A stretch of 64,000 nucleotides of DNA, taken from the NCBI GenBank assembly GCA_958009085.1, contig OY253676.1, positions 124,001 to 188,000 on the forward strand, in the 5' to 3' direction. Made by a program: the position numbers and the translations under genes. Position 1 is the first letter of the stretch. Each line of letters opens with the position of its first letter. Shown here one piece after another: positions 2,977 through 62,782 of this stretch. The notes under the pieces were generated by a model, which was not told the DNA's origin, did not search any database, and saw only the letters and a program-made list of their open reading frames with translations. The stretch is from Protoeuglena noctilucae (Eukaryota).

Positions 2977-4353
2977 ATGGGCGAGCATGCGGGGGGCGCC
3001 GATGCAGAAAGAAATGCGCAGCTGATGGCGGCCGCAGGGGCGGGGGATGTGGAGCGAGTGCGACAACTCGTAGATGAAGGGGCAGGCGAGACTCTCCGGG
3101 CTGCCGCTGCTGCGGCAGGACGGAGCCGTCGCCGGTGCTGCTCGTTCCAGAGGGCATGCTGGCGCGCACACCCGTACCCTTGCCGTCATCATCGCTCTCT
3201 CGTGACGACTGCAGATCCATGTTTCCAGGACGAGAGCGACGGGGCGTCCGTGCTGATGCGCGCGGCAGGCGCAGGGAGCATGGAGGCCGTCGAGTTTCTG
3301 CTCGCCCGCGGGGCGCCGTGGAACGCGCTGGACCGGGCAGGGATGTGCGCCGGAGAGTATGCAATGCATGCAGGGCACCAGGTGGGCGGCGCTGCGACAG
3401 AGCTCCACCGTTTTGCGCCGCCGAGCCGCTCTCTAAGCAGCCCCTACGCCCTCGCCCCAGGAGGTTGCGGAGGCGCTACTGGAGGCGGGCTGCCGCGCGG
3501 AGCTCATCCTGAGCGCGGCGCAGCGCAGGATGGGCGGGGCTGAAGCGTGCGTGGGGCCCCACGAGGCCGGTGAGGGTTACCTGGCGCGCCAGGTGTGTTA
3601 CGACGATGCGGAGGGGCGCCTGATGGACGCGGATGGGGAGGCGGTGATGATGGAGTGGGAGAGGCCGCTGATGGTGGCGCACGCGCACGCCATATGCCAG
3701 ACGCATGGCGATGTGCTGAACGTTGGGTTCGGCCTCGGCTTGGTCGACCAGGCCATCCAGGAGTGCGGGCCCCGGTCGCATACCATCATCGAGGCCCATC
3801 CGGATGTTCACGCTCGCATGCTGCGGGACGGGTGGGACAAGCGCCCGGGGGTCAAGGTAGGACCGGGGCAGCCACTGCGCCTTCAGCAACCGCCCACGGG
3901 CCCATCAGCTGCCGTCAGCACACCTGCCGTGACACTCGATACCACACCGCCGCGCAGGTGGTGTTTGGGCGGTGGCAGGACGTGCTGGAGGGCCTGGGTC
4001 AGTTCGATGGAATATTCTTTGACACTTACGGGGAGCACTACGAGGACATGCGGGAGTTCCACATGCACCTGCCCGCCGTCCTCCGCCCCGGCGGCGTGTA
4101 CTCCTTCTTCAACGGCCTCGCTCCGGACAACGCGTTCTTCCACGCGGTGTATGCCGAGATCGTGACGCGCGAGATGGCGGCCATGGGTCTCGAGGCGCAG
4201 TTCGTGACTCTGCCCATCGGGGCGCTGCGGGACAAGACGTGGGACGGCGTCAGAAACAGGTACTGGTGGAGCGACGTGTACTACCTGCCTGTCTGCCAGA
4301 GGTTGGAGGGGGTAGACCAGGACAAGCCACCGACGGCGCAGGAGGGGGCTTGA
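2977..4353 (+). CDS. RMT2: Ankyrin-repeat protein arginine N-methyltransferase 2 (RMT2 type), 4 exons
   Basis: N-terminal ankyrin-like repeats (LMRAAGAGSMEAVEFLLARGAPWNALD), then AVMMEWERPLM, VLNVGFGLGLVD, HTIIEAHPDV, FDGIFFDTY and YSFFNGL. Confidence 0.92.
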
Positions 4354-4398
4354 CACTAGTAGTGTGACTATGGTATACTTGCTTGAGTACGATTGCAT

Positions 4399-5402: not shown

Positions 5403-7697
5403 CTACAGGCGGACCTGGTACTCCCCCGACTCGGCGATCTTGCGCACCCACTTCTCCGCCTTCATGCCGCTGCGCTCCCAGATCTTGAGGTAGGCCAGCT
5501 TGAGGTTCGAGGCGCTGAGGGCCATGACCGTGAAGGTCACCGACAGCGGCGGCTTGGCCCACTGCTTCTTGGCGTCGAGCGTCGCGATGAGCATGACGTC
5601 CGCAAACAGCAGAACCTCGGTGCCACTGCAGTCACACCGTTGGGTGAGGCAATTCCTGCCACCGCCACGCCTGCTTGCATGCGTCATCTGCACTAATGCA
5701 TGTCGTGACATTACAACTCAGTCACACTCGCATCTCACAGCATCTCACCCCTGGAACTTGCGCATCTTCCACGTGATGCAGTCCTTCCCCGTCTCCCACT
5801 TGGCCTTGCCCAGCTGCGCGTTGCACACCACCTTGGAAGTGTACTTGGAAAGCGGCACCGTCACCACCACGTTCGTCGCCGTCAGCTGCGGGGCAGCGAA
5901 AGAAGCGGGGGGGGTGACGAGGAGGTCATATCATGCGACTTATGTCTCATATCCCATATCTCCCGAGCGAGACGGCCACCCCACCCAGCGTGGAGGTAAC
6001 GCAGACGCAACCCGCCAACCCGTCGCTAACCCACATCACCAAGTACAAACACACACCTTGGGGTCGAAGTCCCCCTTGAGCTTGATCATGATTTCCATCC
6101 GGCTGCCCCCGACCTCCTTAATGGTCGGCACGGCCACGAAGGGCGGCGTGATGCCCTCGGAGCATCGGTAGGTCATCAGCGTGAACTCCCCATCCGGGGG
6201 TGTGAAGGCGATCTCCTGCGACGCGAGAAAGTGAAAGGCGATGCGAGGCGGGCGTGAGGATGGTGGCTTATGACGGTGCACCTTGCCTGGGTGCAAAGAG
6301 ACGGCCGCGTGTGCGCATGGCAACCCATACAACAGGCCCCGTTCGCTTGCAGTCACCTGCTCGGTGTGGTATCGGCCCAGGTTGACGCACTGGTGGAACT
6401 TGACGTCGTCGAGGCGGCTGTTGGCCAGGCCCGCCACGATGTCGGGCATTCCCGACAGGTAGCACTTGATGACGATCCGCCCCCGCACCTCCGCCTGCAG
6501 CACCTGCCCCTTGTTGTTCATCAAAACGTTCACATTCTCGATGATGTCCATGAAGAGGGCGTTTGCGTTGTACTTGATCCCCTCCCGCCTGCGAGGGTAA
6601 CGCACAGCACAGGGCGCCATCGGTGGGGCAGTCCGGCACGACTGCTGCGACAACAACACCGCTCGACGGACACAGTTAAGCATGCAAAAAGAGAAACACT
6701 TACAACCTCTCAGAACGTGCCGCCCGTGTACCGCACCTGTATCCCACCGCCCCCGTGACCTGCAGCCGTGCGTGGGCTGCCTTCTCCTGCTGCTCGCGCT
6801 CCTGCCGCTTGGTCATAAGCAGCGACCGCAGCCCGGACTTCTGCATGATGTACTCCTTCAGGATGTCGTGGTCCAGGACCTGCAGGCGGGGCCTGGGGGC
6901 GCAGCTGAGTCACGCGCATTGACGTGCAGGTGAAGCCGGGAGCGCCTGTCGCGCCCGCGCCTGGGGAAAGCCGAAGTCCATGACCTCGTCCAGGAGCTCA
7001 AAGATGAGGACGAAGTTCTCCTGCAGCGACTGCTGGTTGAACTTGTCGCCAAAGTAGGCGCGAAGGACCCGGGTCAGGTCATGGAGGAACTTGAAGGCCA
7101 GCATGGCGTTGGCGTTGTTGCTGAAAGCAAGGGGAAAGTCACGAGACGTTGCTAAGAGGCGGCGCGGGCGCGGCGGGGGGCGGGCCGGGCGCCCGCGGCC
7201 CACACAGCGCTTGCCTGCAGACCGCGACAAAGAACACGTCGTTGTAGCGCGTGTGCATGAAGGTGACGCGGTCGATGTTCTGTACTGGAGGCAAGCCGGT
7301 CTTCTTGCTGCGCAGCACCTCGCTCCTGAACGTCCCCGGGATGTCCTTGCTGCGCGCAGTCCGGGCGCAGAAGGTAGGGTTCCACGCGGCGCGGGAGAGC
7401 GAAAGCGGGGCCGGCACAAGTGAGCCATGACCAGTGGCGCTCAACTCAACGGGCGAAGCCACGGGGCAGCGAGCAGGGGTTGCGGAGCGGGCAAACGACC
7501 AGCCTCGCTTCCCACCCTGGGCGATCAAAAGCGCGGGCCCTGGAACGCGCGAGCAGGGACATGGGGACCACGGAGAGCAAATTGTAGTGATGTACGCCAC
7601 ATCGCTGCACTCACTCGATGTCATCGCGGTACGTCCGCGACATGAGGACCTCCCCCTTCGGGTTCAGGAGATACAAGGCGTGAAGGGCGCACGCCAT
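5403..7697 (-). CDS. AP2M: Adaptor protein complex medium (mu) subunit, most like AP-2 mu; about 8 exons
   Basis: Motifs LYLLNPKGEVLMSRTYRDD, ENFVLIFELLDEVMDFGFPQ, LQVTGAVG-RREGIKY, DDVKFHQCVNL, FTPPDGEFTLMTYR and LKIWERSG..KWVR. Confidence 0.88.
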
Positions 7698-8179: not shown

Positions 8180-9511
8180 ATGGCGCCTCAGCCGCCTGCG
8201 CCGACGCTGTCGCTGGCCGTCCCGGCCTCCCTCGTTGCGGGACTCACGCATGAAGCCGGCACGATTGTGGCCGGAAGCATCGCCCGATGTGCCGCTGCGT
8301 GTAGGATGCAGGAGGTGGTCATCTATGACGACCCATCGAGCGTCCCGGGCGGCCGCATCAGCCGCGGCGCTGGCTTCCTCGCCCGGTGCGTCTTTCCCGT
8401 ACAGGAACTCCGCATACAACAATTTGCCATACTCGCATGCAACAGCGCCGCGTCAAACCCTCCAGCCGCCGCGACTCTCGCGGGCTCGGGGCAGGAGCCA
8501 CCAAGCCACCAGCTCCCCACTTGCTCGCAGGCTGCTGCAGTACCTGGAGGCGCCCCCGTGGATGCGCAAGTCCCTCTTCCCCGTCCACGAGGACCTGCGA
8601 ATGGTGGGGCTGGTCCCCGCCCTGGGATGCCCCCACCACGCAACAGGCGAGCCGTGTGCTGCAGAGTTGTCAATGCCGCGGGTGCAAAGTCGTATTTATC
8701 AGCAACTCCTGTCATCCTACGATGTCCCCGCAGATGCATCGGGCGCGTATCCCCGGGAGGGCGTCGTGGTGGGGCATGCCAAGGACGGCGCGGGGGTGCT
8801 GGTGAGGCTGGGAGAGGGCGAGGAGGTGACGGCGACCGGCACCGCGCAGGAGGGGACGCGGGTGACGGTGCGGGCCGGGGACGGCGGCGCGGGGGAGCGG
8901 GGCAAGGCAGGAAAGAAACGGCGGCGTGAGCAGGCGGGGCTGACGGTGGAACCGCGCGGGCTGGGGTTCGACCTGGGAGATTCGTATCGTGGATACGTGG
9001 TCCGGGTGACGAGAGGGCTGTCCGGGGTCCTCGCGGAGGGCCCTTTTGAGAACGGCTACGATTGGACGGTTGGGACGGTTGAGAGCAGGTCAGACATGCG
9101 CATGGGGGGTGGTCAACTGGTGAAGCCGCGGCTCTGCGAGGTGCGACAGATTGCTACCGCTTGCGGCTGCGTGCAGTGGGGATGGGTTGGCGTCGCTGTC
9201 GGTGCCTGCGGGTACGAGGCACGCGCTGATCGCCGTCGGTGGGCGGGGCGGGCTGGCAGGGTGTCTGGAGAGGGATGGGCGATTGGAGGCGGAGGAGCCC
9301 GGACATTTGCTCGACGCTTTGGCGGGCGTCTGCGCGAAACTGGTGAGAAGAAGAGCGCTCTCTTCTACTCACTGCATCGCTGCATTGATGTGGATGGCTG
9401 CACCTGCTGACGCGCATGTGGGCCTTCCGATCGCAGGGGACGTCGTCGTTGCAGGCGGAGGAGGTGGCGTGGGCCGTCGCCTCGCGCGTGGCTGCAGTCC
9501 TGGGTCGCTGA
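8180..9511 (+). CDS. SPOUT1: SPOUT-domain methyltransferase, C9orf114/SPOUT1-like
   Basis: TLSLAVPASLV..GSIARCAA...EVVIYDD, FLAR|LLQYLEAPPWMRKSLFP, YRGYVVR, GYDWTVGT, and a terminal GTSSLQAEE corresponding to the GSRTIRTEE motif. Confidence 0.8.
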
Positions 9512-15590: not shown

Positions 15591-16630
15591 ATGGCGAGCC
15601 TTTGCGCGTCGTTCGCTCGCCTCTCGGTGGGCGGCCCAAGGGTGAGGAGGCCTGCGAAACGGTGGCTGAGTTGCCTTATCTGTGTCCTTGAGGCCGGCAC
15701 GGTCTCAGGGACTGCCTGGGCCTGGGGAGACGGCGGACACGCGCCGACGCGCCCTCCCCAGGGCTAGAGCGCCACCGCGACGCGCGCCTGTAGCTCATGC
15801 ACTTCTCACACATGTCTTGCTTGCGCGCGCGACTCCGAGTCTCGGGCTCTTGGCCACACCATTGGCCAGCCTCGTTTATCTGACTCCGCGAGGCCTCCCC
15901 AGCGTCGCGAGGGGGGTGTTTTGCACGCATTCGTCTCCTTACCACCGAATACAACGCGGGAGCAGCCGGGATGCGCGCCTTTCCGCCCCCTTGTCCGGGA
16001 AGACGAGGCAGTCCACCGGACGCGTCGCGTGCCTCTCTCGCAGGCCCTCGCCTCCTCTCGCAACGGCATCGTGGCGTCCGTGCGCGTCGCGGCGGCGCCG
16101 AAGGCCGTGCGCATCGCGCGCGCTGCGGTGGTGGAGGTGGTGGACGGGTACAAGCTGAAGACGCGCAAGGCGGCAGCCAAGGTGCCGTGGCGGCCCGCGC
16201 GTGGCCTTCCGCGAGTCGCTCTCGGCGGAAACACCTTTTGTTCAGTATTACTCATGTCCTGTCTATGCGCGGCATCGATGCGCGCCCGCGCGGCTTTGTA
16301 ACACACGACAGACCGCGTGCCGCCCCACTCGCAGCGCTTCAAGGTCACTGCGACGGGCAAGATCATGCGCCGCAAGCCGGGGAAGCAGCACATCAACGAG
16401 AAGAAGGGGCGGAACAGGCGAGGGCGCGGGATAGGGCCCCCAAGCGGGGCGCGGTGGCTCGTATGCTGCGAGCGGGAATGGCGGTGCTCAGTTTGGTGTT
16501 TATGTAACCGCCCCTGCCCCTCCGCAGGCTCCGGAAGCTGTCGGGCGAGGACCCCGTCTCTCATTCGGACTACAACAACGTCATCTCGTGCCTCCCCTAC
16601 GCGGGCATCAGCAAGCGCGCCCTCAACTGA
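15591..16630 (+). CDS. RPL35: Plastid 50S ribosomal protein L35 precursor (4 exons)
   Basis: Ser/Ala/Arg-rich transit-like N-terminus, then GYKLKTRKAAAK|RFKVTATGKIMRRKPGKQHINEKK..|LRKLS..DYNNVISCLPY. Confidence 0.93.
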
Positions 16631-24482: not shown

Positions 24483-26485
24483 CTAACCCACGGTCAGGCT
24501 GCCCCCCAGCTGCGGGGTCAGGGCGAGGTCGCTGGGCGGGGCCGCACCGTCGGCGCGCCCAGAAGTGGCGTAGCGCAGGGGCGCCCCCACGCGCTTGAGC
24601 TGGTCGCGCAGGTGCGCCCAGTCGCTCATCGTGAACGTCCGGAACGTCCAGCGCTTGCACACCACCTCCTCCCGGACCTGGTCGAGTTTGGCGTCCAGCA
24701 GGCCAGCCCCCACCACCTGCAGATGGCGTAAAACATGGGCCATTAAGGAGAGCTCACGTCAGGACTCGCAAGGCTCTGGGACACAGAGATGAGACCCGGG
24801 GCTCCCAGCAAGAGAGCCGTGCAACCAGGTGAGTGCCCGCACGCACTCGCACCTCGACCACAACCCTCTCCAACTCCGGAGCCTCGACCTGCAGGGCCTC
24901 CGTGAGCTTCTTGTACGGGATGGGGCTCCCGTCCGCCTCCTGCGCCGTGGCCAGCAGCGCCATGACGCGCCCCTTGCGCAACACCAGGTCCTTGGTCGTC
25001 TTGCACGACTCCAGCACCCCCGGGTGCTGGTTCAGCAGCGAGACCAGGTCTGCGGGGACGACGCAAACAGCGGGGCGCTTGCAGCGGCAGCAGACGCGGC
25101 GCTGCGGCTCCCCCTGCATGCCGCACGGCACGCCCGGCGCTTGCCTTTCATGTTGCCCGACACGAGCGCGTTGAGCGTGGCCACCTCCGGCGACGAGCGG
25201 AGGAGCTGCTGCACGGCGGAGGACCCCAGGAGGTCGCACTCGAACACCGTGGGGCTGCTGAGGAACAGCCGGGCCGCCTCGTTGGCCGCACGCGACACCT
25301 CCGACCCGGTCGTCGTCTGCCCGTCGAGCGCCCACATGGCGGCGTTGTACAGTGGCATCAGGTCCTCCGCCCCCGCCCCGGACGCGGACACGACGCGGGC
25401 CGTGGCCAGGTACAGCCCCGCGCTGTCCGCCGGGCCCAAGCCCCACTCGCGCGCCCACTTCTCGGCGTTGGGGCGGATCATCGTCGCCACCGACGCTGCG
25501 GCGAGAGGTGGAGTTAATAGCGGTCAGGTTGAGGCACCGGGGGAGTCGAGGGAATGGAGTTGCCAGACCAGGCGCTCCCCCGTGCTCACCGGACAGCGTG
25601 GGTTCGCTGACCCCGACCGACAGGATCGCACGGACCACGGGATAGCGGAACGGCCCGTGCGTGAAGTTGAACAGGTCCACGAGCGTCGCGAGGCGGTCCT
25701 CGGGGGGCAGCTGCTCGGCTGCCCGCACGAGCATCTCCACCACGCGGGTCGCCTGCGGGTCGGGGACCTTGCTCGCGACGGCCATGAGCATCGTCGCCGC
25801 CACCCGCCGCTCCTCTTCGGGAGCCCCCACGATCAGCGGCATCTGCAGGGCGCGGAGAGGGGCGGCGGCTGCGGGTGCCAAGCTGACGCGTCATCCGGGC
25901 TGCTCGCCCCGCAAGCCCCCGCGCGGGCGCGCCGCGGTCCGCAAAGAGCGCGACGTCCACGAACGCGGAGCGACGCTCCTTCGCTCCGCACCTGCCCGCA
26001 CAGGATGCCCGCCGCGCCCTCCTGATCCCCTTGAGCCAGCAACGACTCGCACTGCGCCACCAGCTGCCCCTGCGGACCACGCGGAGTGCTGAACTCAGCG
26101 ACACTAGCCACGCAAACGACCGGACACGTGGACACTGTCGCCAGCCAGCGCGAGCGGCTGGCGGGAGCGCTCGATGCGACGCGAGTGCTGCCGGGCGCAG
26201 CGCGCATACATAGCCGCGAATCGCAGCGCCCGATTCACCAATGCCAACCAACAAAGCATAGCAAGCAACTGGCATGCACTGCTGTCCAAACGACCCTTTC
26301 ACGCGCCGGGGATGGCGCCCGCAGCAGCCCGTGCGTCTGCTGGGCCCCCTGCATCCCCGCTGGCCCCTCCGCTATTCCGCCGATGCAGCGCCGACACCCA
26401 CCTGCTGCGCCCCCAGCTTGTTGGCGACAAAACGCGCCAAGGCCAGCGTGGAGTCCTCCACGGACTCCATCAGGAACGCAGTCAT
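24483..26485 (-). CDS. EIF3M: Eukaryotic translation initiation factor 3 subunit M (PCI domain)
   Basis: N-terminus MTAFLMESVEDSTLALARFV, then LVDLFN..RYPVV, PTVFECDLL, RKGRVMALL..IPYKKLTEALQV and GLLDAKLDQV..FTMSDWAHLRDQL. Confidence 0.8.
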
Positions 26486-27039
26486 GCGTTCCCCCCACCC
26501 CAGGCACACGCGGGACACCGCAAGCTCTTAGACAGGGCCAACGGATACTGCGACAGGGAGCCTTGTCCCGCCTGTTTGCGAGGCGGCTGAGGACTGGGCC
26601 GCTGAGATCGCGCGTGAGGGGAACTAGCAGCGGACGTCAATGCACAGACGGAAAGGCCGATGGCAGAAGCACACCCGAGATCTGAGCGTCGCGAGCCGTG
26701 ACACCTCGTTCGGGTCTTTTCTGACGCTTTTTCATTCTCCCGGGGTCTCCTGCGGGGCTAGCTGGGCTCGTGCGACACACAGCTGCGATTTACACGCAAG
26801 CACGGGGTAGCATCACTGTGCAGGGGGCAGCAGGCGTGGCGCAGGGATGGACATGCAGGCGAGGGCCGCGCCACGCCTGCCGACTCGGACAGCATATGCA
26901 ATGATACGCTAGTTCGGGCCCATGCGCATTGCCGGAAAGCCCATCACGCGTAGAAATGGGCGCGGGGAAGTTTTCCCAGAAAAAGACTTGCCCGGAGCCC
27001 GGGTTCCAGATCCGCGGACGCCCGCGCGCTCTTTGTTGG

Positions 27040-37100: not shown

Positions 37101-38665
37101 GCGGGACGTGCGAGGGGTGTGTGACATGCGGAAAGAGGGTGACATGGTGAGCATATGGCGCAAGAGGTGGAAAGGTTGGTGACACGGAGCCTATGAAAAG
37201 AGGGTTGGGTCGGTTTCACAAGCGTGGGGGTAGAAGGCGTCTGTGTGGGTTTACAATCGCCCTCGCACCTACGCCGCCCTTGTTGACTCCCTTGAAGAGG
37301 ACGGCGAAGTTCAGGAGACCCTGGTGATCCTCGATTCGCTTACACACCTCGCTGGGAGCCGGAAGGGAGGCCACGGTGGGTCATCGAGACGATAGGTGCG
37401 GGCGAGTGTAAGCGCACGCGTCGGCCGGGCTGTGCTGTGCCGCACGGTGCCACGTTGCAACTCAAGAAGCGTGTCGTGAAGTACATGAACATGACCATGG
37501 TCACCTGAATCGCACGTTGACGTAGAGGACCTTGCCATTGACGTAAGGCTTGTTAGTGCCGGCCATAAAGGGGTAGTAGGGAGCCATGTTGTTGACGAAG
37601 TGGGCGTTGTAAACCAACAAACTCGTGTCCTTGCTGATGCTCCAGAGGTCGAAGCGGTGCCCGCCGTCTCTGCGGAGCGCAGGGAGGCGAAAGTGTTGTC
37701 GAACGTGCTCGGCGGAGATAGCCGTGCTGACGCCGCGCCGCGCGGATCGGAGCCGCATGCGGACTCACATAATCGTGTTCGTGCACGCCGTGCCGACCGC
37801 GATGTGCCTCCCGACCGGCGCCACGAGCGCTTCTTTGCGGGAGACCTCGGGTGCCCGAAAGTCGACATCTTTCGCGAAGACGACGTCCGATATCGCCTTG
37901 TTCGGCGCAGCGGCAGGCAACGCGAGCACGCCTCCGTAATGGAGCTCCCTGCGGACGCGCGCGCGCGGTGCGGGAGCCGTTCCAGCGCTAAAGCTCTGCA
38001 TCATGCTCAACACAGCTTCCACGGGGCAGCGCATGCGGACCTTTGGCTCCCATCCGCCTGCGGCATGTCCGCGACCAGCACCTGCGGGGAAGGGGACAGG
38101 CCAGGCGTGAAGCTCGCGTTGAACCCTTGCGTGTGGCAAGGTCTCTTGAAAGCTGTGCGGATCCGGGCGCCCCTTCGATGCGCCGACTGCGCCGACAGGA
38201 TGAGTCAACGAAATCCTCTCGCCTGGTCCTCGTGCTTGTCGAAAGTCACGGTGCGCGTGGTCAAGGCGACGACCTCGGGGGGAACGTCGATGGGATCCCG
38301 GCAGTCGGGAAACGCGTTCCTGAAAATCCGATCTGCTGGCCCCGATTCCCACGCATCTGGGTATCCTGCGGAGCGCTCGCGGGAGACGCGACTTTGCATG
38401 GGCCCCAGGCATGCACACGTTGTTGGGCTTCACGTGCATGCGATGAGGGACACAAGTGCTCTCGCGCAAACCTTAACGAGACAGGACCCAGCTGAGGTGC
38501 GCAGTGGCCCCATCCCCCGAGCCGCTTGTCCTGACCTGCGCTCTCCACGGCGTGCATGTGGGCGACTGCGCCTGGGGGCGATATTGATGCACGCGCAGCA
38601 TGACCAAAGAAGATCAGGAGGAGAGAGGCTAGGACCAAATGCGCAGGAGGGCAGGGAAGCGGCAT
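34108..38665 (-). CDS. Receptor-like protein kinase: signal peptide, unrecognised ectodomain, TM segment and TKL-type kinase domain with degenerate motifs
   Basis: Signal peptide MPLPCPPAHLVLASLLLIFFGHAARA and TM segment FIASVLAA|GPLGLLAFALCAIAA. Kinase motifs: ISSGTHGAVYRG, VAVK, LHHPNLV, WVVMEH, HGDVEAKNVLL, VADFS, GTISHLPPE, ADVYA and DPKARP. Confidence 0.82.
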
Positions 38666-39126: not shown

Positions 39127-41292
39127 CTACACCTGGTCCCCGGGGATCTGCCCGTCGATGACGTACTCGACCTCCGCGGTGACCTGCTTCTGCTTCGCGG
39201 AGTGCTCGTCGATGACCTTGCCGCTGGGGACCTGGGGCGCACGCCTGGCCCTCTTGCACGCGCGGACGGCCAGCACGATGCCGATGGCCACCAGGATGCC
39301 CCCGACGCCCTGCAAGGTGCGAGAGCGAGCGAGGGCGGAGTGAGAGATGAAAGACAAAGCGGTGGCACGCATCGACAACCCACCGCACCGTCGTGAGAGC
39401 GGGAGCAGACCTTGCCGCCTGGGCAAAGGAGCCGTGCGAGAGCAGAGAGAGCTACCCAGCCGCTCACCCCGACGAGGACGGCGATGACGGGCACCTCCCA
39501 TCGCTTGATGCTGGCGGAGCTCTCCCGCGTCCACTGCACGTCCACGTCCAGGTTGCCCTGCCACTGCATGGCTGCAGCCTGCACGGCCGCCCTGCAGCCA
39601 GGCGCGAGGTCCGGAAACCATGGGCGACAATGCCGGGTGCGTCGCTACCCCTGCACCATGCCTGGCTGCGATGTGTCCTTATCACAGGTCGTCCCGCCAG
39701 CGATACGATGGCTGAGAGTCGTGAACCAAACAGGACCGGCTCACCTGTACGCCTTGTCGAGCACGGGGGGCCCGAGCGCGCGGTCGGCGCTCCCCGCGTC
39801 GAGGGACGCCACGCATCCGAACGTGACATTAACCATGCGCATGGTGACGAAGCCCGTGTTGAGCGCCACGGTGTCCCGCACGAGGTAGGACTTGACATCC
39901 AGGCCGTTGTCGAGCCCCGCTGCGGAACAAGGGAAGGTGAAGGCGGAGTTAGCCGGCTGGTGGGAGGGGCGGTGCGCTGCAGGGTACTTGCGCGGGTGGC
40001 ATGGGCACGCACCCACATCGCTCCTCGTCATGTTCTTGAAGTACGCCCCCAGGTCCCGCAGGCCCGTGTGGTTCACCACGGAATCGCACACCTCACTGCG
40101 ACACTCGAGAGACCATCGTTTCATCCTTTGACAATGAGACTCGATAACCCACCCCCTCGTCCCGTCGCAGCATCATCCGGAAATGGCACTGTGCACGGCA
40201 GAGAAAAGGGCGGAGATCTCACACCTGAAGCGCACGTTGACGTAGAGGACCTTGCCGTTGACGTAGGGCTTGTTGGTGCCGGCCATGAAGGGCGGGTACG
40301 TGATGACGTTGTTGATGAAGTGCGAGTTGTAGATGAACATGCTGAGGTCGCTGCTGGCGTTCCACAGGTCGAGGCGGTGCGCTCCGTCGCTGCAGCAGGA
40401 AGAGGTGGGACCTGGCTTGGTTGCACAAGGGAGGCCACGCCATGGGCGTCGCGTGTGTGCAAGCACGCAAGCCGCGATCATGCATCAAGCGACGTCTCAC
40501 ATGACTGTGTTGGTGCACGCGGTCCCGATGGCCATCTGCCGGCCCGTGGGCGTCACCAGGGCGTACGGCTGCGACTCCCCGCCGGTGCCAAAGTCGACGT
40601 CTTCAGCGAAAACGATGTCCGACACCGCAGCGTCCGGCGCCGCTGCGCCCAACGCCATCGCACCTCCATAGTAGAGCTCCCTGAGCGACCCGGAGATTCC
40701 CGAAGCGTCCGCGATCGCCACCTGTCGGAAAAGGGCGTGACCGTTGAAAAGGGCGGGGGGCGTGGGGCGTTTGAATCAGGGGCGCCCATCGCCGCGCCTG
40801 AGGTCCGTTTAGCGCTAAAATGCATCTTGCCTTGTCCGTGTAGCTGCCGGACGAAACGGTGCGCAGGGAGTAGGTCAGGGCAGTGCCGTTCAGAACCGTC
40901 GGGACCGGCGCAGCATTGTCGCACGTCTTGAACACCTTCCCGAAGACTTGGGAGGACGACAAGGCTGTGGAAGAAGAACCGAGCTCTGCGCACGAGGAGG
41001 AGGGCGCAAGGTCGTCCCGGAGGCTCACTTTTTGCATGTCACATGACTGGTCGGGTTCGCGCCCACCTCGGCGTCGAGCAGCCGCCGCAGCGTCACAGAT
41101 TAGACGATCGCACGCATAAGTAGCCAAACTGGGCCATTCCGGCGACTGGGGGGCGCGGGGTGAGCAGGACGGCCGCCCTTGTCCTGCTCAAGCGTGCGGT
41201 GCGCATCCCGCCTCACCTGTTCCGCCCACCGAGGTCACCATTAATAAGATGGCTAATGCGCCACCCAGCCAGGCGCGGCGAGCGGGCGGCAT
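39127..41292 (-). CDS. Type I membrane protein; kinase-less tandem paralog of the adjacent receptor kinase ectodomain
   Basis: Signal peptide MPPARRAWLGGALAILLMVTSVGG. Shares PFMAGTNKPYVNGKVLYVNVRF, GTACTNT, VNVTFGCV, LGPPVLD.AYR and QWQG with the neighbour. TM segment VIAVLV|GVGGILVAIGIVLAV, then a short tail. Confidence 0.8.
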
Positions 41293-41436
41293 TCTGTTAC
41301 ACGTTGTTGACACACCCCTCCAAGAGAGGGCGAAGGACCTCCGCCGATCCGAGCCCTTTGTGTGATCAAGAACTGCCGGCACGCGCGTGAGTATGCAACC
41401 ACACGCGCCGTGCTTGCATCGCATGAAACATGCGTT

Positions 41437-43984: not shown

Positions 43985-45238
43985 ATGACCGGAGCACTAT
44001 CTTGCCCTGCTAAACCGCCCATACGGCGACTTGCAACATCGTTATGCAATCGCGCCGTTCCACACGCGCATCGGGGGACGCATGGGCGAGTGAGGCAGGG
44101 CCATGATGTCGGATGCTGCAGCGCAAAGGAGGGGTCCTTTGGCGGCGCGGACTCTTTGGATTGGGAGACGATGGGAAGGTGACATCCGGCTGGTCGTGGC
44201 ATCGGCGCGGAGGACGTATGGCAGGTGCACCGCTGCACTCTCGCCAACCCGAAACGGTCTTCCGCACAGGCTTGCCAGGAGGACGGTTCTGCTAGCTTCG
44301 GCGCTGTCGTTCGCACGGCCATGCGCAGCGTCAGGAACCGCCACTGAGAGAATCGCGGGCCAGTACGACAAGTACAGGCGAGGCAAAGACGGCGTGATGG
44401 CTGACACCTTGAGAGCTAGCCCAAGAGAGAATGCGTTCACAAGACCCGCCTGTGCAGCGCGATGTATGATGCTCTGGACGGCGGCGCGGCGGCGGAGGCC
44501 CTGGGATTCCCAGAGCTGCGGTCGGCGCTGCTGTCGCGGGCTCGGGGACGCACGCTGGAGACGGCGGTGGGCACTGGGCTCAACTTGCCGCTGTACCCGG
44601 GAAACGAGGGGAGCGTGTCGTCGCTGACGGCGGTGGACGTGTCGCGGGGCATGCTGGAGCGAGCGAGGGCGCGTGCAGCGGGGGTGGGGACCGCGGTGGC
44701 GCAGCAGGCGACGTTTGTGGAAGGAGACGTGGCCCGTCTGCCCTTCGAAAGCGACAGCTTTGATACGGGTGAGAGAATGGCTTTGGTCTTGCTTGTTTTC
44801 TTCCTTTCCATGCACACCCGGGGTCATCCTTCGCTCTTGCGCGCCGCTCCTTACTATGAGACGGCACCCAGCACGCTCCAGGCACCCTCGTGCCCTGCCC
44901 CATCCCATGACCCACTCTCGCCGCTCTCGGCCCCCGCAGTCCTGGACACCTTCTCCCTGTGCGTATTCCCGGACCCCTCAGCCGCCCTCCGTGAGATGGG
45001 CCGCGTTCTGCAGCCCTTCGGGTCCCTCCTCCTCCTCGAGCATTCCCGCAGCGACAACCCGCTTCTGGCGTCGTACCAGGACCTGACTTCAGGGGCGGTG
45101 GCGGCCACGGCCAAGGGGTGCGTGTGGAACCAAGACGTGGAGGGGATGGTGCGGGCGGCGGGGATGGAGGTGGTAAACGCCCGGCGGGCCGCGGCAGGGA
45201 CCGTCGTCCTGCTCGAGGCGCGCAAGAGGCCCGCGTAG
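43985..45238 (+). CDS. Class I SAM-dependent methyltransferase (Methyltransf_11/UbiE-like), probably plastid-targeted
   Basis: YD.YS.MYDALD, TLETAVGTGLNL, AVDVSRGML, GDVARLPFESDSFDT|VLDTFSLCVF and LLLEHSRS. Confidence 0.88.
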
Positions 45239-54795: not shown

Positions 54796-57700
54796 CTACT
54801 TGGGGGGGTCCAGGATTCCCTCCATCTGCTGCCGCATCTGCGCCATGGCCGTGACGATCAGATAAGGGTTCTCCAGAAGCTTTTCGTCCCCACGCTCCTG
54901 GGCCGTCTTGACCACCTTGCGGAGGGCCTCACGGTACTGAGGGAAAGGAAAGCGGAGGACGCGTGTAAAAAAGTATTCACTGGACCGTTGACTTCTTCAC
55001 GAGGCATAATGTTGAAGAACAGCCTGCAACCGTTGGATTCGCAAGCGCAGGGTTGGCACCGGGCATCCCCATGCTGCACCCGCACCTGCTCTCCGTACGT
55101 GCGGCGGATGTACCGCTGCAGGAAGTCTGCTGCGTAGAAGCGAACCCGCGCATCTGCGGACACAAAAGCACCCACGCCGTCGTCCCACTGACACGGCACA
55201 GGCCGTCAGCCTCGGACTCTTGAAACCCCTCCCTCTGGCAGACAATCGACGCATCCATGACATCCCCGCGCATGGTTTCCATTTAAAAGCCCCGTCCGCC
55301 CTCGCGCTCGCTTACCCGGGTCCTGCAGGAAGCCCTGGGCGGCATGAACCGCAGACGCGCCACCTTCTGCGCCAGCCCCGGCCCTCATGGGCAGCCCCGA
55401 GCCCCACTTGGCGAGCAGCAAGACGACGAGCAGCAGTCGGGCGTCCTCCGCGGCCGATGCCCACGGCGACCAGGCCACGCTCCCCACGTCACGCTCCACC
55501 CGCGGGCAGGCCAGCAGCCCGCCCAGCGCCGCCTGGTGCGTCGCAAACTGCGCGGGCGACAGTGAATACGTGAGACTCAGTGCGGCGGCGACTGCGGAGG
55601 AAGCGCGGGCCGTCTGCGGGGCCTGAATTCGCTCGCAACTCGCGAATTGCACGCCTTCCCCCGCCGCGCCGCCTCCCCGCGCGCTCACCAGGGAGCACTC
55701 GCCCTGCAGAAAATCGATGATTTCCTGCACCAGACCTGCGTCCACGTCCCGGGCCACCGCGCCCCACAGCTCGGGGGACACCTCGACGAGCTCGCCCGCC
55801 ACGAGCGACCCCCAGCCGCCGGGGTACTCCGGCGCCTCGAGGAAATAGTTGACGGGAGCTGTATTGGGGTCCGCGACGTCGCTGAGCGAGTCGCGGCCCG
55901 CCGCGGAGGCCGGCGCGAGCATCCCGGCCCGGGACGACACGTGGCGTGATGGCGCAGCGTTGGCCGCGTCTGCGCCCGACTGCGGCGTGTCCGGGGCGCC
56001 GGAAGTCGACATGGCGCGCGCGGAGGCGGACGCGGAGGGCGTCGCGGGCGTCTCGGCCAGGAAGGGCAGCTCCTCGCTGTCGTCTGCGTTTTTGTCGACC
56101 AGCGCCGAGAGCAGCACCCTGGACGGGGGGCAAGGGGTGTACCGATGATGCGCATTGCGATAACACGTGACGCTTGGAATCGCGCACGTGGCATTGGGAG
56201 CGCTGTGGCCGCTGCTAACGGTGTCGGGCGAGCGACGGGCGTGGCGGAAGCCGGGTGCATCGAATAGATAGCAACGCGGAGGGTCACACCTGACGCTCCG
56301 CAGGATGGCGGGGAGCGCCCCGTTCACGTGCTTGTACTCCAGCAGCCACCGCGCGCCATGCACCAGCACCTGCATTGATCGAGAGCGCGGGGGCATGGGT
56401 CGGGTGGCAAGGCGATCACGGCACTGCCTATCAAGCTTGCACACGATGGCCCAAACCCGCACTCGCACCAGCCTGTTCAGCACTGCACGCCATGGCATGC
56501 ACCCGCTCCCCCCACAGCCTACCCCCATCCCCGCCTCACCTGCACCCCCTCCCTGCGGCTTTCCGCGGACATGACGTCGCCGGGGAGCGGCACCCGCGCC
56601 TTGCCGTGGCCTACGGGTAACCACGCCCGGACATACACCTCCAGACCTGCAAAGGGAGAAAGCGAGGACGGCAGGGGTGGGCGGACCGCAGAGGGGGTTG
56701 CAAAGCGTGCTGATTACCACGCATGATGTGACTCGGATACGCTGACCAGCGCACGGGCAACGACGGCAGTCAAGGCAAAAAGACAATACATCATTTGGAC
56801 TACCCACCATGTTCTGACGGTGCCCCCGTTCCCCTCCACTTCGCCAAACCAACTGCACCCATCCACTTGCCTTCGACGAGCGTCTGCAGCGCCATGGGCC
56901 CGATGACGCCGCACCGCTGCAGGAGCGGCACGAGCACGCACGCCCGCAGCCGCGTGTCGCAGTCGTCGCGCACGCGGGGAACGTCCAGCCCCGCCGGCCC
57001 GCCGCCCTCGTGCGCGATCGGCACGGGGAGCACCCCGTTGCGCAGCGTGCGCTCCAGCCGCCCGATCTCGTCCCCGCCCAGCGTGCCCCCGAAGCCCGAC
57101 AGGATGGGGACCAGCTTGCGGTCCGCTGCCGCCTCGAACAGCGCCCGCACCCAGACGAGGATTGTGGGGAATGCCCTGCTCAGGTCCTCGGAGCACCGCA
57201 GGAAGAGATCGTCCAGTGCGTCCCATGCTTCGACGGTGGCGCCGTGAGCGCCGCGGGGCTCCTTGAGGGATGAGACTGGGGGGTTTGAGAGGGGGGTGGT
57301 GGTGAGGGGGGAGGGGGGGGGGGGGGGGGGGGTGAGTGAGCAAGGGCGGAGAGCAGCTGTAATTTCTAACCCTATCCTCCACACGGGAAGATTTCGTTAC
57401 ACAGAACATAGATAGAACATAGAACAATGACATCCTGTTACCCCCCACTCTGCTCACCCGTGACTTGCAGGTGGTGTGCGGTGGATTCCGGCTCTGTGGG
57501 CGGCAGCTGCACCAACGCACGCGCGGCCACCTGCATCTCTTGCAAGACCGTCTGCGGGTAGGAGTGGGGCATACGATGACTCGAAATGCAAGATGACGAC
57601 CACATTTGACGAGCGGAGTGCTCGCATCGCTCTGCTTGTTGGTTGCTTCTAAACAATACTTACACCCGCCAACAGCATCATCCTCTTGATCCCCCCTATC

Positions 57701-60700
57701 CATCCATACCAATTAAACTGCACATATCCCCACCACTCACCTCCAGCATCATCCTCTTGGCCCTCGCCAGCGCCGCCGACGCCTCCTCCCCGCCCCCCAC
57801 CCCCCTTGCCGCCTCCTGAGCCACGATCCGCGCGCACTGCCCCACCAGTGTGCCTGGATCGTCCTCCAAAGGGGGAAGCACGCCTGGCAGAGGGGGGCGC
57901 CAGTGGGCGCCGCGGCGGGACGTGGGGTGCGCGGTGGTGCCAAAGAGCATGGTGCTGCGGGGAGGTGGGGTGGGTGGTAGCTGTGGAGCTGGGGCGGGCG
58001 TGTTTGGGCGTGTGGGGGTCGGCAGTGCGGGGTTTGAGAGTCGGGTTGGAAGGGACAGCACAGGATGGGCTAGCTGGGTTGCATAGTAGTGGAGCGAAGG
58101 TCACCTGATGGCCAGCGCGAACCCCTCCTGCGCCATCACGAAGTAGGGCCGCAGCAGCCCCGGGAAATCGTCATCCGACTCAAAGAGCGCCGCCGCCACC
58201 CAGCGGTGCAGGGCCGGGCGAGGCACGCCGCCCACGTCTGTGAGGGAGAGCACGGGGGTGGCGCTGTGGTATGCGATGCTTGGGGCGACTGAAGTGAGGG
58301 AGGTAGCGCTGTGGCATGCGATGGATGGGGTAAGCGGCGTGCGTTGTAGCATGCATTGTTCGATAGGGAACCGGGCGCATGTCAGATCCCGTGCCAGCAT
58401 CGCGTGTCGCGCGCACCTGACGGGTGCTCCAGCCCCTCCCGCATGGCCCGTATCTCGACCCGCTTCAGCACCGCCTCCAATGCCACAGTGAAGAGAGACT
58501 GGCGGACGTCCGCGGACAGCTCCCACCTGGGGGGTGGGGGAGGGGTGGTAAGCGTGAGGGTGGCAGTGAGGGTGGCAGTGAGTACGGTCGTGCATATCTG
58601 CAGTCCCGACCTCCTCTGCTGTCTAATGCTCATCCAGTTAACCCCATTACCCTACCGTGACCCGCAATCACCTGAATCGCTCGGCAATGGCGGGGAGTCC
58701 CCCGAACGCCTGCAGCTTCGCCACGTCCAGCTCCACGTCCCTCCAGTCGCTGGCCAGGGAGGTGGTCCGCGAGGATCGATCCTTGAACAGCAGGTACTGG
58801 GGGGAAGGGGGGTTGGGGGCATGAGGGCGGTTGTGGACAACGCTCGTGCAGACAGTTACAGACCATAAGTGTGGGGGCAACGCAGTTAAGAGTACATATG
58901 CATGATAGACACCAAAGATGTGCATTCGTCGCCTCTGTTGCCCCTCCTCACCAGCGAAAGCCTCATCAGGTCATCGCCTGATCACTATCAGGCACCTCCA
59001 TTCGTCTGCATTGCCCCCTCCTCTCCGGTCTCACCAGTGACAGCCTCATCAGGTCGTCCCTGAGCGCCGGGCTCCACCCCTGCCGGTCGCAGAACCGCAG
59101 GAGGATGGCCAGGGCCGCCATGGGGGCACCCTCACACTTGCTCCGTTGGAACGCCCCGCCCGCAGAGCACAGCGTCACCATGCACCCCAGGGCGCTGGCC
59201 CAGACCTCGGAACTGCGCTCGTCCGTCTGGGGGCGGGGGAAGCGTTATGGGGTTGAGCATATAATGACTGGTTGGGTGTGACTGGTGGCTGGGGTGAGGG
59301 AAGGCCATGCAAGGCTAGGTGGGGTGACAGGGAAGTCCAGCATGGTTGATGCGAGGCAACAGACCACTGGCCTTGCCTCAGTCACCCCACCCTCACACCC
59401 TCACACCCCAACCAAAGCCCCGACCCCCGCCCCGCTCGCCTTGGCAAGCACCGCCATGGCCTCCCACATGAGCGGCCGCAGCCAGTCATGGAAGAGCCCC
59501 GTGAGCCACCCCGCGTGAGCCGCGCCTCCCGCGTTGCCCACAAACAGCGAAGCGGTGGACCCCACCCCCTTCCCCGCCCCGCCCCCGCCCTCCCCGCTCA
59601 CGGCCGACCCGGGGCCCCTCGGGCTGCCCACGCCGCCCATCACGTAGCTGGTGCGCGCCAGCCTGTGCTGCGTGTGCTGGTCGGAGGTGGTGGAGGGCGA
59701 CTGGGCGGTGCGGGCTGCTGGGGCTTGCGGTGATGGCTCCGACCCCCAGGGGGCTTCGATCAAAAGGGCGTGGATGGCGAGGTTGACGATGATGTCGAAG
59801 GCACGCGCGCGCATCTTGTCCTGGGCGCTCGCCAGGCAACGGCTGGGGGGGTAGGGGGTGCGGGGTGGTGGGGGATGGGGTGCGATGGTATGGTGGGTGA
59901 ACAGAGCGGGGGCAGGGAAACACAGGACGCAGAGGTGGGGGGGAGGGGACATGTAAGAATGCAAGTGAGGAACGAGGGGGCGCGGGCCATTTGTAAAAAA
60001 CGTGCGGCATCGACCACGGCGGGAATCGATCGCGGGACCTCACCGGATGATGACGAGGCCGAGGGGCAGGGAGGGCGCGGGTCCTAGCTTGAGCCACATG
60101 TCGATCAGGAGCTTGGAGAGCAGCGACATGGGCACCTGCAGGTTGCCCTCGGGCACGTCGCCCTCGGTGCGGCCCTTGCGACCCACGGCCTGGCAGGGAG
60201 GAGCGGGGGTGGATGGGTGGGTGGGGGTGGTGAGAGAGGGGGGAGCGGGGGTGGCGGGGTGGGTTGGTCACACACAAGAGAGAGCAGAACAGGAGGGTAG
60301 ATGGTCTCAGACAGGAGAGAGTGGGAACAACGAGGTGGGTGGTCAGAGAGCGGTGGTTGCTGACCGCGCCCCACACAACACCACTCTCCACCATCTTCCC
60401 CCATCCAAACACCACCACTCACCTCCGCCCCGCACACCGACTCGACGATGGCCCAGACCTCGGCTGCCGTGGGGATGTCTAAGGGGTCCTGCTCCACATA
60501 GGGCACGTGCGCAAACATGGCGCGCGAGCGCTTGTGCAGCTTTGCCTCGGAAGCGCCCGCCCACGCGTCCCGCCGCTGCTTGTGCACGATGCCGCGGACG
60601 TGAGACGCGAACTCCGCCGCCTCCGCCGTGTGCATCGAGCCTGCAGAGGCGAAGGACGCGAGTGCAATGCATTGAATGCGATGCGCTAGTCGAGCAATGT

Positions 60701-62782
60701 GGCCGACTTGCAACAATTGATTGAGTACACATATGAACCGATGCGAACCATTTGCAAGATCCGCAGTGAGGCATTCGACACGGCCACGCGAGTCCTCATC
60801 GCAGCTCCAGCTGCAGCGTCCAGGCCCTTCCTCAAACCTACCCCACCCCCATCCTCTGCCTCACCCGGCCCGCCGCGCCCCACCCGCCCGCTCCCGCCCC
60901 CGTCCCTCCCGAACGCCCCCATTGACACGCCAGACACCGCCGGAGTCAGGGCGGGCGGTCGGTCCGTGGACCCCATGCGACCGGGGAAGCCCCTCGCAGC
61001 CGCCGCTAAGAACGCAGGCCCCCCGCTCTGGCTCTGCCGGACCAGACCCGACGCCTGGCTGCCCAGCGGCGGCACGGCCATGCTCGATGCCGGGGAGTGG
61101 GTGGCGGTGGGGTACCAGTCACCCGGCGCGGAGGACGGTGCGGTGGCGGGGCCCGGGCGGACCTCGAAGCCCCACCGCCAGCGGAGGAGGTCTGCGGGGA
61201 CATTGTCCAATGGGTCTAAGACCTGCAGAGGGGGGATGGGGTGAGTTGTATTGAGGGGTCCAACATAGACCTGCAACGAGGCGATGGGGTGGGTGTGTTG
61301 GTGTAAGTGTGTTGAGGGCTTTAAGACCTCCAGAGGGGCGCTAAGGGCCGCGGTTGTGGGAGCCATGGCGGGTTGAGCCACTGCGAGAGCGCATGCGTGT
61401 GTGGGTGACTGGCAAGACTGGCCAAACACTGCAAGAACGCCGCTGCCGCCATTCACCTGGCGCCTGCCTCCCCATCCGTTGCTGCGCATCGATGCGGTCC
61501 AGTCCGGCTGTGAGAGGGAGTGAGGGGTGGGAGAACCCCTGGCCCCGCCCGCCAGCCCCGCCGCTCCGTCGGACATTGCCGCGTGGTGGCGAGCGGGGGG
61601 CGGGCCGGGCGCCGGGGCGGCGGCGGCGTCGGGGGCGACGCTCGCGGGGGCACTTGCGGGGATCTGGGCGGACAAAGCGGTGGGCAACAGGGAGGGCATG
61701 GAGGTGAGGGTCACGTCGTGGGCGGTAGCGGCGCGGTCTAAGGGCCCGGAGGCACTCGCGGTGCCCCCCGTGCTGCCTGCCGCCTCTTGCAGGGACTGCC
61801 GGGGTGGAGAGGAGACGCGGGAGGTGCCCCCGAACGAAGGCCTGCGTCGCAGAGGCAGAGCGGACTGGCAGGGTCAGGCCACAGCGCAGCGAGAGGCACC
61901 ATGAGTGATGGTGATGAGCGTGGCGGGCATAGCAATCGTGGTGAGCGTGGCGGGCATAGCGATCGTGGTGAGCGTGGGGGGCACGTGTGATGAGCGTGGG
62001 CATTCAAAGTCACCTGCCCTGCGGCGAGGCCTTGCCGTCGGGCTTGACGACCACCTCGCTCTGATCGACGCCCATCGCGTCCCAGAACGCCAGGAACTTG
62101 TCACTCCTCTGCGGGCGTCAGAGAAGTCAACGCGTGTCAACTGGGGCTGTTGGGCAGGCCGAGCAGAGCTGCCACAGGGGGTGTTGGGCAGGGCTGCTGG
62201 CCGCAGCGACCGGACGGCCAATGCGGATGTTGCGGATATTGTGTCACTGCGACTGCTGCTGATGCCTTGAAAGACAAACTACCGCTGTGACCCACCCACC
62301 CCTGCCACCGCTCGCCTGCAGGGTGGTGAGGACTTGGCGCAGGTACAGCAGGGCGGGGACGCTGCCGGGCGACTCCTTGGGCGCCTCGGAGAGTCCCCAG
62401 GAGACCAGCGATAGAAGCTCACGGAGCAGCGTCACGGAGGGGAAGTGGGCGTGGACCGACCGACGCAGGAGCGCAACGCAGCGGTCCACCACGGCCCAGT
62501 TGCGCGGCTCGTCGCGGGCGCGCCTGCAACAACCCGGAACGGATTGCGATGCGAGCGGTTTCCGTGACTTTCCGGCGGCATTGAAGCGTTCGATTCGCAC
62601 GAAGGGCCAGCGGACCTGATGATCGTTTCGTACGTGGCATCCGTGGTCCTCAGATCGGAGAGGAAGTCGAGAAGGTCCTTCGCCCGCCCTGGCTGCAGCG
62701 ATAAGGGCTCGGGGCTGAACGGCTCCGTGGCCTCGGCGACCGCATGCCGAAGGCGCGGGGGCGGCGTGCCGCGGACCGGCAT
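54796..62782 (-). CDS. CLoG1: CLoG1-like (At3g12590-like) large plant-conserved protein, about 15 exons
   Basis: Recalled similarity at PPPRLRHAVAE..LLDFLS..TTDATY..AVVDRCVALLRR, YVEQDPL..AEVWAIV, LSKLLIDM..RARAFDIIVNLAIHA.LIE, and C-terminal DARVRFYAA.FL..AQERGDEKLLENPYL. Confidence 0.75.
61911..62002. repeat. Intronic 27-bp tandem repeat, about 3 copies
   Basis: GTGRTGAGCGTGGCGGGCATAGCRATC at 61911 and 61938, with degenerate copies at 61965 and 61987. Confidence 0.88.

What the first reader, a model, noticed from the sequence alone, without database searches (positions are those of the whole stretch)
3086..62315. Unusually frequent GC-AG introns
Seen: restoring the proteins requires GC donors at 3086 (RMT2), 6960 and 7214 (AP2M), 8647 (SPOUT1), 16418 (RPL35), 25144 (eIF3m), 28139 and 28579 (CCT2), 31501 (KAS I), 34455 and 38222 (kinase), 40830 (paralog), 44378 and probably 44085 (methyltransferase), and 62315 (CLoG1). 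Most are CAG/AAG|GCRAG. That is roughly one intron in ten by my rough count, against about 1% in typical plants and animals (established). It suggests relaxed +2 recognition by U1/U6 in this lineage.
Basis: partly seen in the sequence, partly recalled or inferred. Interest (0 to 1): 0.7.

Follow-up and report, generated by a model that had tools for sequence, protein, structure and literature searches.

The report
Frequent GC-AG introns in green alga
In this small marine green alga about one intron in six starts with GC instead of the usual GT, roughly ten times the rate in plants; some other algae do this too, but here the second base looks almost free to vary whenever the rest of the splice signal is strong, which makes the alga a handy natural test case for how cells check intron starts.

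Summary
Confirmed and underestimated. 14 of 15 listed donors hold up; 44085 is better read as a GT donor at 44090. Three more were found (26859, 59439, 56870): 17 of about 135 coding introns in the window. RNA contigs splice 3 of 15 shown junctions at GC and bound a fourth. A self-trained gene finder on 834 kb (3% of the genome) of 1472 donors GC (16%; decoy floor 1-2.5%). The alga is a pedinophyte (Marsupiomonadales mitochondrial code). U1, U2, U5 and U6 recognition sequences are canonical, and the introns are not repeats. In MAG|GYRAG, C fills +2 in 179 of 321 donors (56%), the intron background; with a non-A at -2 it is 3%. Best reading: +2 acts as one more U1 base pair and drifts T/C in strong sites, because later checks are lax. 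PRP8 is unusually diverged, including P1912N beside a known yeast +2 suppressor (candidate only). GC-rich splicing is known (Emiliania 56%; green-algal annotations up to 8.5%), and this scan noted a similar case in another alga.

The parts
3086..3214 (+). GC-AG intron, RMT2-like gene (CAG|GCGAG)
   Evidence: Restores an ankyrin-like repeat spacing from ATG 2977 (inference); gene finder chose a GT at 3135 instead; not RNA-tested
7121..7214 (-). GC-AG intron, AP2M (CAG|GCAAG)
   Evidence: Gap-free alignment to homologs P0136/P0138; gene finder
6880..6960 (-). GC-AG intron, AP2M (CAG|GCGCG, weak type)
   Evidence: Gap-free alignment to homologs; gene finder
8647..8733 (+). GC-AG intron, SPOUT methyltransferase (PF02598)
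   Evidence: Frame, gene finder, Pfam on upstream exon (97)
16418..16527 (+). GC-AG intron, chloroplast ribosomal bL35
   Evidence: Frame, gene finder, PF01632 on upstream exon (97)
25050..25144 (-). GC-AG intron, eIF3m-like gene (AAG|GCAAG, phase 1)
   Evidence: RNA contig pieces in X2, X3, X4 stop exactly at 25145
26859..27185 (+).
   Evidence: Spliced model equals transcript-derived P0001
28139..28311 (+). GC-AG intron, CCT2; same position has a GT-type read-through in two other organisms
   Evidence: RNA joint in 4 of 4 runs; P0002 and P0065 continue with Val (GTN) at this position (85)
28579..28803 (+). GC-AG intron, CCT2
   Evidence: RNA joint in 4 of 4 runs
31501..31701 (+). GC-AG intron, KAS I-like ketoacyl synthase
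   Evidence: RNA joint in 4 of 4 runs
34279..34455 (-). GC-AG intron, protein kinase gene
   Evidence: Frame, gene finder
38082..38222 (-). GC-AG intron, kinase gene N-terminal domain
   Evidence: Same position and phase as 40830 in the 49%-identical paralog
40722..40830 (-). GC-AG intron, paralog of the kinase N-terminal domain
   Evidence: Same position as 38222 (67); gene finder
44378..44457 (+). GC-AG intron, SAM methyltransferase gene
   Evidence: Open frame from ATG 44082 (107); not called by gene finder; not RNA-tested
44090..44269 (+).
   Evidence: Only this reading keeps the frame
62109..62315 (-).
   Evidence: Frame, gene finder
59227..59439 (-). GC-AG intron, same gene, new
   Evidence: Gene finder in both trainings, AAG|GCGAG
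56647..56870 (-). GC-AG intron, same gene, new
   Evidence: Gene finder in both trainings, AAG|GCAAGT

Best explanation
These are ordinary major-spliceosome (U2-type) introns whose +2 T has changed to C by point mutation. A canonical U1 still selects the donor by pairing. The +2 base costs one base pair and little else, so wherever -3..-1 (MAG), +4A and +5G already pair with U1, T and C at +2 are nearly interchangeable and sit at the mutational equilibrium of this 65%-GC genome; in weaker donors C is purged. Shown: the frequency, the context rule, canonical snRNA motifs, no repeat origin. Inferred: near neutrality, origin by T-to-C change at old introns (one site with outside evidence), and that the checks after U1 (U6/PRP8 at activation and catalysis) are laxer here than in plants and animals. 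Speculative: which protein change causes this.
For: Gene finder started with equal 3% priors for GA, GC and GG converged on GC 190, GG 32, GA 29 of 1166, with a tight MAG|GCRAG matrix for GC only; GC-blind seed without the window gave 175 of 1019, and 11 of 1024 after the called GC donors were written as GT in silico; held-out DNA 48 of 309; all 834 kb 238 of 1472, 95% CI 14.3-18.2%. Allowing GC adds 2184 log-likelihood units, the same matrix on GA 6, on GG 78. C share at +2: MAG|GYRAG 179 of 321; GAG|GYRAG 26 of 121; MAG|GYRCG 12 of 121; non-A at -2, 9 of 328; non-G at +5, 0 of 55. Intron interior C/(C+T) 0.58; neighbour-matched backgrounds G-Y-G 0.52-0.57 and G-Y-A 0.80-0.83 in introns against observed 113 of 246 and 28 of 31. 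Computed U1 duplex energy of GC donors (median -6.7 kcal/mol) equals the weak quartile of GT donors. No effect of intron rank, gene GC3 or intron GC, no clustering in genes (p 0.42), same length and acceptor as GT introns. Predicted U1C, spliced through a GC donor, is identical to library protein P0347 on a 2136-nt contig; PRP8 consensus runs straight across its 2 GC of 14 junctions. Kondo 2015 (PMC4383343, passages): +2C binds U1 better than +2A. Churbanov 2008 (PMC2490688, part 1 of 2): neutral fixation of GC in strong contexts proposed for mammals.
Against: Genome-wide numbers come from my own ab initio models on 3% of the genome at fixed, non-random coordinates, coding introns only; RNA backs only 5 GC donors, all from one study. 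The neutral baseline depends on the DNA chosen (G-Y-G is 0.70 in intergenic DNA, 45). With +6T, C reaches 38 of 44, above neutral, and strong GT donors avoid +6T (13 of 242 against 14-17% background), so pure neutrality is too simple; an upper limit on U1 pairing strength may also act. No control genome was run through the same pipeline; that strong-context donors are mostly GT in plants and animals is recalled, not tested. No causal spliceosome change is shown.
Confidence: 0.6

Rival explanations
1. A standard spliceosome plus strong GC pressure (mutation bias or biased gene conversion) is enough; nothing in the machinery has changed.
For: Genome 64-68% GC; snRNA motifs canonical; Feldmesser 2014 (PMC4028052, passages) proposed this for Emiliania (65% GC, 56% GC-AG); annotations of Micractinium (7.0%) and Chlorella sorokiniana (5.7%) are also raised.
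Against: Other GC-rich green algae are annotated low: Chlorella variabilis 67% GC, 484 of 70,983; Micromonas commoda 64% GC, 36 of 5,375 (annotation pipelines may bar GC). Within this genome GC-donor share does not follow gene GC3 or intron GC.
Confidence: 0.2
2. Selection keeps U1 pairing inside a strength window, so C at +2 is favoured where the rest of the donor is near perfect.
For: AG|GTRAG donors have +6T in 13 of 242, AG|GCRAG in 54 of 207, background 14-17% (p 5e-8 to 1e-3); AG|GTAAG is nearly absent (3 T against 28 C in MAG|GYAAG).
Against: Excess shrinks against the intergenic baseline (0.74); CpG decay (intron CpG o/e 0.82, 88) distorts baselines; compatible with, not exclusive of, the best explanation.
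Confidence: 0.1
3. GC donors are weak sites kept for regulated or alternative splicing.
For: Link to alternative splicing reported in mammals, worm and Arabidopsis (PMC2490688, PMC3488318 passages).
Against: Present in 115 of 216 intron-bearing models at random-like spread, in housekeeping genes; printed RNA joints show one form each (contigs drop rare variants).
Confidence: 0.05
4. A second, variant U1 or U6 that pairs with C at +2 exists and was missed.
For: Searches score only the best candidates (41 of 427 for U1); assembly may be incomplete.
Against: One U1 by model and by DNA search, one U6 (12); GC donors need more, not fewer, other U1 matches (5.2 against 4.1), as expected with an unpaired +2.
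Confidence: 0.03
5. The GC introns are introner transposon copies, as in pelagophytes.
For: Pelagomonas introners carry GT and GC donors (bioRxiv 2021.10.25.465678, passages); this alga has more introns than an unnamed relative (AP2M 7 against apparently 1).
Against: Only 4 of 190 GC introns (19 of 915 GT) have any blastn partner, short low-identity matches; same length spread as GT; the 28139 position is shared with other organisms.
Confidence: 0.02

Closest known systems
GC-AG-dominated splicing of Emiliania huxleyi (Feldmesser 2014, PMC4028052; passages read)
   Same: 65% GC marine alga, frequent GC donors, canonical AG acceptors
   Different: Haptophyte; 135 of 241 curated junctions GC (56%) and 4% GA; here 16% GC, GA not above decoy level, green lineage; no context rule in the passages I read
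Ordinary GC-AG introns of plants and mammals (Pucker and Brockington 2018, PMC6310983; Churbanov 2008, PMC2490688)
   Same: U2-type, arise by GT-to-GC change, need a stronger U1 match elsewhere
   Different: 1.2% on average in plants against about 16% here; here +3 is mostly G and +6 is T in only about a quarter
Green algae with raised major non-canonical counts in annotations (PMC6310983 supplementary table 6: Ostreococcus tauri 173 of 2044, Micractinium 8057 of 114,347, Chlorella sorokiniana 7090 of 124,435, Micromonas pusilla 496 of 8831)
   Same: Chlorophyta with several-fold excess
   Different: 5.6-8.5%, annotation-based and pooled with AT-AC; this alga is about twice the highest of the 121 species listed
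Dinoflagellate GC/GA donors (PMC12584245, passages) and pelagophyte introners (bioRxiv 2021.10.25.465678, passages)
   Same: GC donors tolerated at scale
   Different: GA also used in dinoflagellates; introners are repeats with inverted ends, not seen here

Membership tests
U2-type GC-AG intron | Spliced out with GC..AG ends | tested here: met
   3 RNA joints in 4 runs, plus P0001 and P0347
U2-type GC-AG intron | Closer U1 match outside +2 than GT donors | tested here: met
   5.2 against 4.1 matches; matrix
U2-type GC-AG intron | Acceptor like that of GT introns (YAG) | tested here: met
   -3C 100% against 98%, -4G 82% against 76% (40)
U2-type GC-AG intron | Lariat with branch adenosine | not testable with these tools
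   Only a weak CTCAC enrichment near 3' ends
U12-type intron | Extended ATCCT donor consensus (motif recalled) | tested here: not met
   GC donors read GCRAG; U11/U12 genes not searched
Introner elements | Introns form repeat families | tested here: not met
   4 of 190 GC introns with any hit
Introner elements | Narrow length class | tested here: not met
   Quartiles 94/136/180 against 94/131/184 nt (40)
Introner elements | Terminal inverted repeats and target duplications | not tested
   Not scanned intron by intron
Emiliania-type GC-dominated splicing | GC donors are the majority | tested here: not met
   238 of 1472 (88)
Emiliania-type GC-dominated splicing | GA donors also used | tested here: inconclusive
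   33 GA calls, diffuse, level with the GG decoy
Marsupiomonadales (Pedinophyceae) | Mitochondrial AGA/AGG read as Ala (PMC12574857 abstract) | tested here: met
   cox1 has Arg codons at conserved Ala sites
Marsupiomonadales (Pedinophyceae) | UUA/UUG absent inside mitochondrial genes (PMC12574857 section 11) | tested here: met
   0-1 per long frame for cox1, nad5, nad1, cox3 (83)
Marsupiomonadales (Pedinophyceae) | Groups with named pedinophytes in a tree | tested here: inconclusive
   Quick CCT2 tree: own clade with three unnamed sequences (support 93), no named pedinophyte in the set

The most novel reading that the evidence does not exclude
This lineage carries a natural '+2 suppressor' spliceosome: PRP8 changes, among them P1912N (yeast 1984, two residues from T1982 whose Ala mutant suppresses the yeast 5' splice-site U2A mutation), perhaps with a LUC7 whose second zinc finger has lost two ligands, have removed the check on +2 after U1 binding, so that +2 evolves neutrally under a pure U1-strength window.
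Probability: 0.2. Interest if true: 0.78.

Novelty: new member of a known kind. Interest (0 to 1): 0.5.

Why it matters
Why GT is almost invariant at intron starts, when GC can work, is an open question. Here thousands of GC-AG introns (about 7,000 if the sample scales; my extrapolation) sit in a compact green-algal genome with canonical snRNAs and a sharp, countable context rule, in the same phylum as Chlamydomonas, whose PRP8 has a solved structure (8xi2). That gives candidate residues to test in yeast or Chlamydomonas and a genome in which to separate U1 pairing from later proofreading. Practically, gene finders that demand GT would misplace a junction in about half of the intron-bearing genes (115 of 216 models hold a GC intron).

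Tried and rejected
First training run had a wrong seed junction and an empty length table; its counts (high GA/GG) are discarded. 'Trained model on negative set' (0 GC) is circular and not used. Gene-finder GC call at 23986 rejected: it sits upstream of the likely start of the SERCA-type ATPase; 2 GA and 1 GG window calls also dropped as errors. U1C as cause: T11S and Y12F are common (Phe12 in 15 of 47, Ser11 in 3 of 47 hits, tallied in 83; hits are biased toward the query), yeast has Ser11 (59), and Ala changes there do not affect yeast growth (PMC4383343 passage); only S19V is rare. Loss of METTL16 or SNRNP27: both present. Metagenome scan with a CCT2 alignment gave 80 loci, none a close intron-rich relative, so no same-pipeline control genome. 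AP2M search found 6 homologs, not the alga's own transcript. ESM Atlas on LUC7 (104) only returned the family. The careful CCT2 tree did not finish; the quick tree is shown.

Full report
Observation. The window is G000:C9:124001-188000 of a 26.3 Mb, 27-contig assembly, 65% GC. Fourteen of the 15 listed positions are the G of a GC after AG; 13 read AG|GCRAG and 6960 reads CAG|GCGCG. Position 44085 is GG; the GC one base on gives a stop, whereas ATG 44082 with a GT donor at 44090 opens the methyltransferase frame. Marine metatranscriptome contigs (4 runs, 3 samples, 1 study) were laid on 24600-44599; 15 of 52 joints were printed, 12 GT-AG and 3 GC-AG (28139, 28579, 31501), each in all four runs. 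Contig pieces end exactly beside the eIF3m donor 25144 in three runs. The CCT2 protein from the same RNA contig (P0001) equals my spliced model and reveals a further GC donor at 26859. AP2M homologs align gap-free over both AP2M GC junctions. With 59439 and 56870 from the gene finder, my hand tally is 17 GC of about 132-136 coding introns in the window.

Genome sample. I wrote a generalised HMM gene finder and let it train itself on the window plus twelve 50-kb blocks from twelve contigs. GA, GC and GG donors began with the same 3% prior and the same matrix. It settled on GT 915, GC 190, GG 32, GA 29; only GC acquired a tight matrix (-2A 95%, -1G 98%, +3G 83%/A 17%, +4A 93%, +5G 98%). Every block gave 10-26% GC. 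Held-out DNA gave 48 of 309. A GC-blind seed without the window gave 175 of 1019 and recovered 14 of 15 RNA introns in the window (the starting parameters came from those two genes); writing the called GC donors as GT and retraining left 11 of 1024. Allowing GC gains 2184 log-likelihood units; the same matrix on GA gains 6 and on GG 78. Over all 834 kb: 238 of 1472, 16.2% (CI 14.3-18.2), 186 of 1117 in the better-supported subset. After a false-call floor of 1-2.5% the estimate is about 14-16%. Two checks outside the window: the predicted U1C, spliced through a GC donor, is identical to library protein P0347, and the PRP8 consensus runs straight across both GC junctions (no deletions; 43 inserted residues in total among 117 homologs near one junction, not examined). 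Limits: model-based, fixed coordinates, 3% of the genome, coding introns only.

Organism. CCT2 places it in Chlorophyta in a clade with unnamed sequences, apart from the named trebouxiophytes, chlorophyceans and Tetraselmis (quick tree). Mitochondrial cox1 has Arg codons at conserved Ala sites and long mitochondrial frames lack TTA/TTG, the traits given for Marsupiomonadales, Pedinophyceae (PMC12574857, abstract and section 11).

What the GC introns are. They match GT introns in length, acceptor and GC content, are not clustered in genes (p 0.42), not biased to first introns (41 of 246 against 197 of 1156) or to GC3 class, and are not repeats (4 of 190 with any blastn partner). At CCT2 position 170 two other organisms read on into Val, which implies a GT donor at the same site, and a third reads Gly; so at least this intron is old and has switched. 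The kinase and its paralog share intron positions and both have GC at one of them; given the odds below this is weak evidence of conservation.

The rule. C at +2 depends sharply on context: MAG|GYRAG 179 of 321 (56%), GAG|GYRAG 26 of 121, MAG|GYRCG 12 of 121, non-A at -2 9 of 328, non-G at +5 0 of 55. Intron interiors have C/(C+T) 0.58. The share even follows the neighbour: 113 of 246 before G (background 0.52-0.57 in introns, 0.70 intergenic) and 28 of 31 before A (0.80-0.86). GC donors make 5.2 other U1 matches against 4.1, so total pairs are about equal, and their computed duplex energy (median -6.7 kcal/mol; no pseudouridine or C-A wobble terms) equals the weak quartile of GT donors. So +2 behaves like one more U1 pair. 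One result goes beyond neutrality: strong GT donors avoid +6T (13 of 242) and GC donors gain it (54 of 207; background 14-17%), which hints at an upper limit on duplex strength.

Machinery. One U1 with the canonical 5' end, one U6 with ACAGAGA (12, 14, 20), canonical U5 loop 1 and U2 branch-pairing stretch. METTL16 and SNRNP27 are present. U1C differs from human at contact residues 11, 12 and 19 (contacts from PMC4383343 passages), but the first two changes are common. PRP8 departs from the consensus at 67 of 1084 near-invariant columns (6.2%; 6 of 120 homologs depart more), CCT2 at 3 of 190 (Fisher p 0.009). This is one control gene, with different homolog panels, and no pedinophyte was knowingly in either. 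Among the changes is P1912N, yeast 1984, beside T1982, whose Ala allele suppresses the 5' splice-site U2A mutant (PMC11092753 passage). One LUC7 locus was found; its second zinc finger reads CxxS and ends in Tyr where yeast has CxxC (99, 102, 105); I recall similar fingers in other protists, untested. These are candidates, not causes.

Mechanism, committed. Canonical U1 selects donors by pairing strength; checks on +2 after U1 are weak enough that T and C drift to mutational equilibrium in strong donors (0.6). GC pressure with unchanged machinery is the main rival (0.2).

What is known. Plants average 1.2% GC-AG (PMC6310983 passages). In its supplementary table 6 (GC-AG pooled with AT-AC, from annotations) the highest of 121 species are green algae at 5.6-8.5%, while GC-rich Chlorella variabilis has 0.7%. 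Emiliania has 56% (PMC4028052 passages; lead from earlier finding e1-7379173, which reports a like case in another alga); dinoflagellates use GC and GA (PMC12584245 passages); pelagophyte introners use GC. Neutral fixation in strong contexts was proposed for mammals (PMC2490688, first half). LUC7 classes: bioRxiv 2022.12.07.519539, passages. PMC10639083 and PMC3488318: passages only.

Verdict. Real, stronger than reported, a new and well-quantified member of a known kind, apparently the highest in the green lineage among the data I could see, with a clean context rule and testable protein candidates. Interest 0.5.

Noticed in passing
window 27897-33484: One RNA contig in X1 and X2 runs from CCT2 through its stop (29881) into the KAS I-like gene (ATG 30086) and all its exons; overlapping UTRs or read-through. 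A contig does not show a single transcript.
   Followed up: no
L167:1182-2622 (G000:C1): The only LUC7 found has a degenerate second zinc finger (CxxS, last His replaced by Tyr); no second LUC7 subfamily gene was found in two searches.
   Followed up: partly
G000:C14:434255-444970: PRP8 departs from near-invariant residues at 67 of 1084 columns, 14 of 201 in the RNase H-like region, including P1912N, V1863A, G1867T.
   Followed up: partly
G000:C26 (L166, L177, L178): Mitochondrial contig uses AGA/AGG at Ala sites and lacks in-frame TTA/TTG; cox1 is followed in frame by long intron-like ORFs.
   Followed up: partly
window and all blocks: Introns are G-rich at the 5' end and C-rich at the 3' end, with CTCAC rather than CTRAC enriched near the acceptor; GT donors have G at +3 in 92%.
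   Followed up: partly
window 34108-38557 and 39127-41241: A kinase and a neighbouring membrane protein share a 320-residue N-terminal domain (49% identical, same intron positions) with no Pfam match in the two exons tried.
   Followed up: partly
P0136, P0171 (unnamed relative): AP2M and CCT2 homologs both list a longest contig of 52,318 nt, perhaps the same one, and appear to have only their first introns, so intron density differs strongly between these relatives.
   Followed up: no
window 49327-54302: Long low-complexity gene with repeated IQ-like motifs (name recalled), not identified.
   Followed up: no
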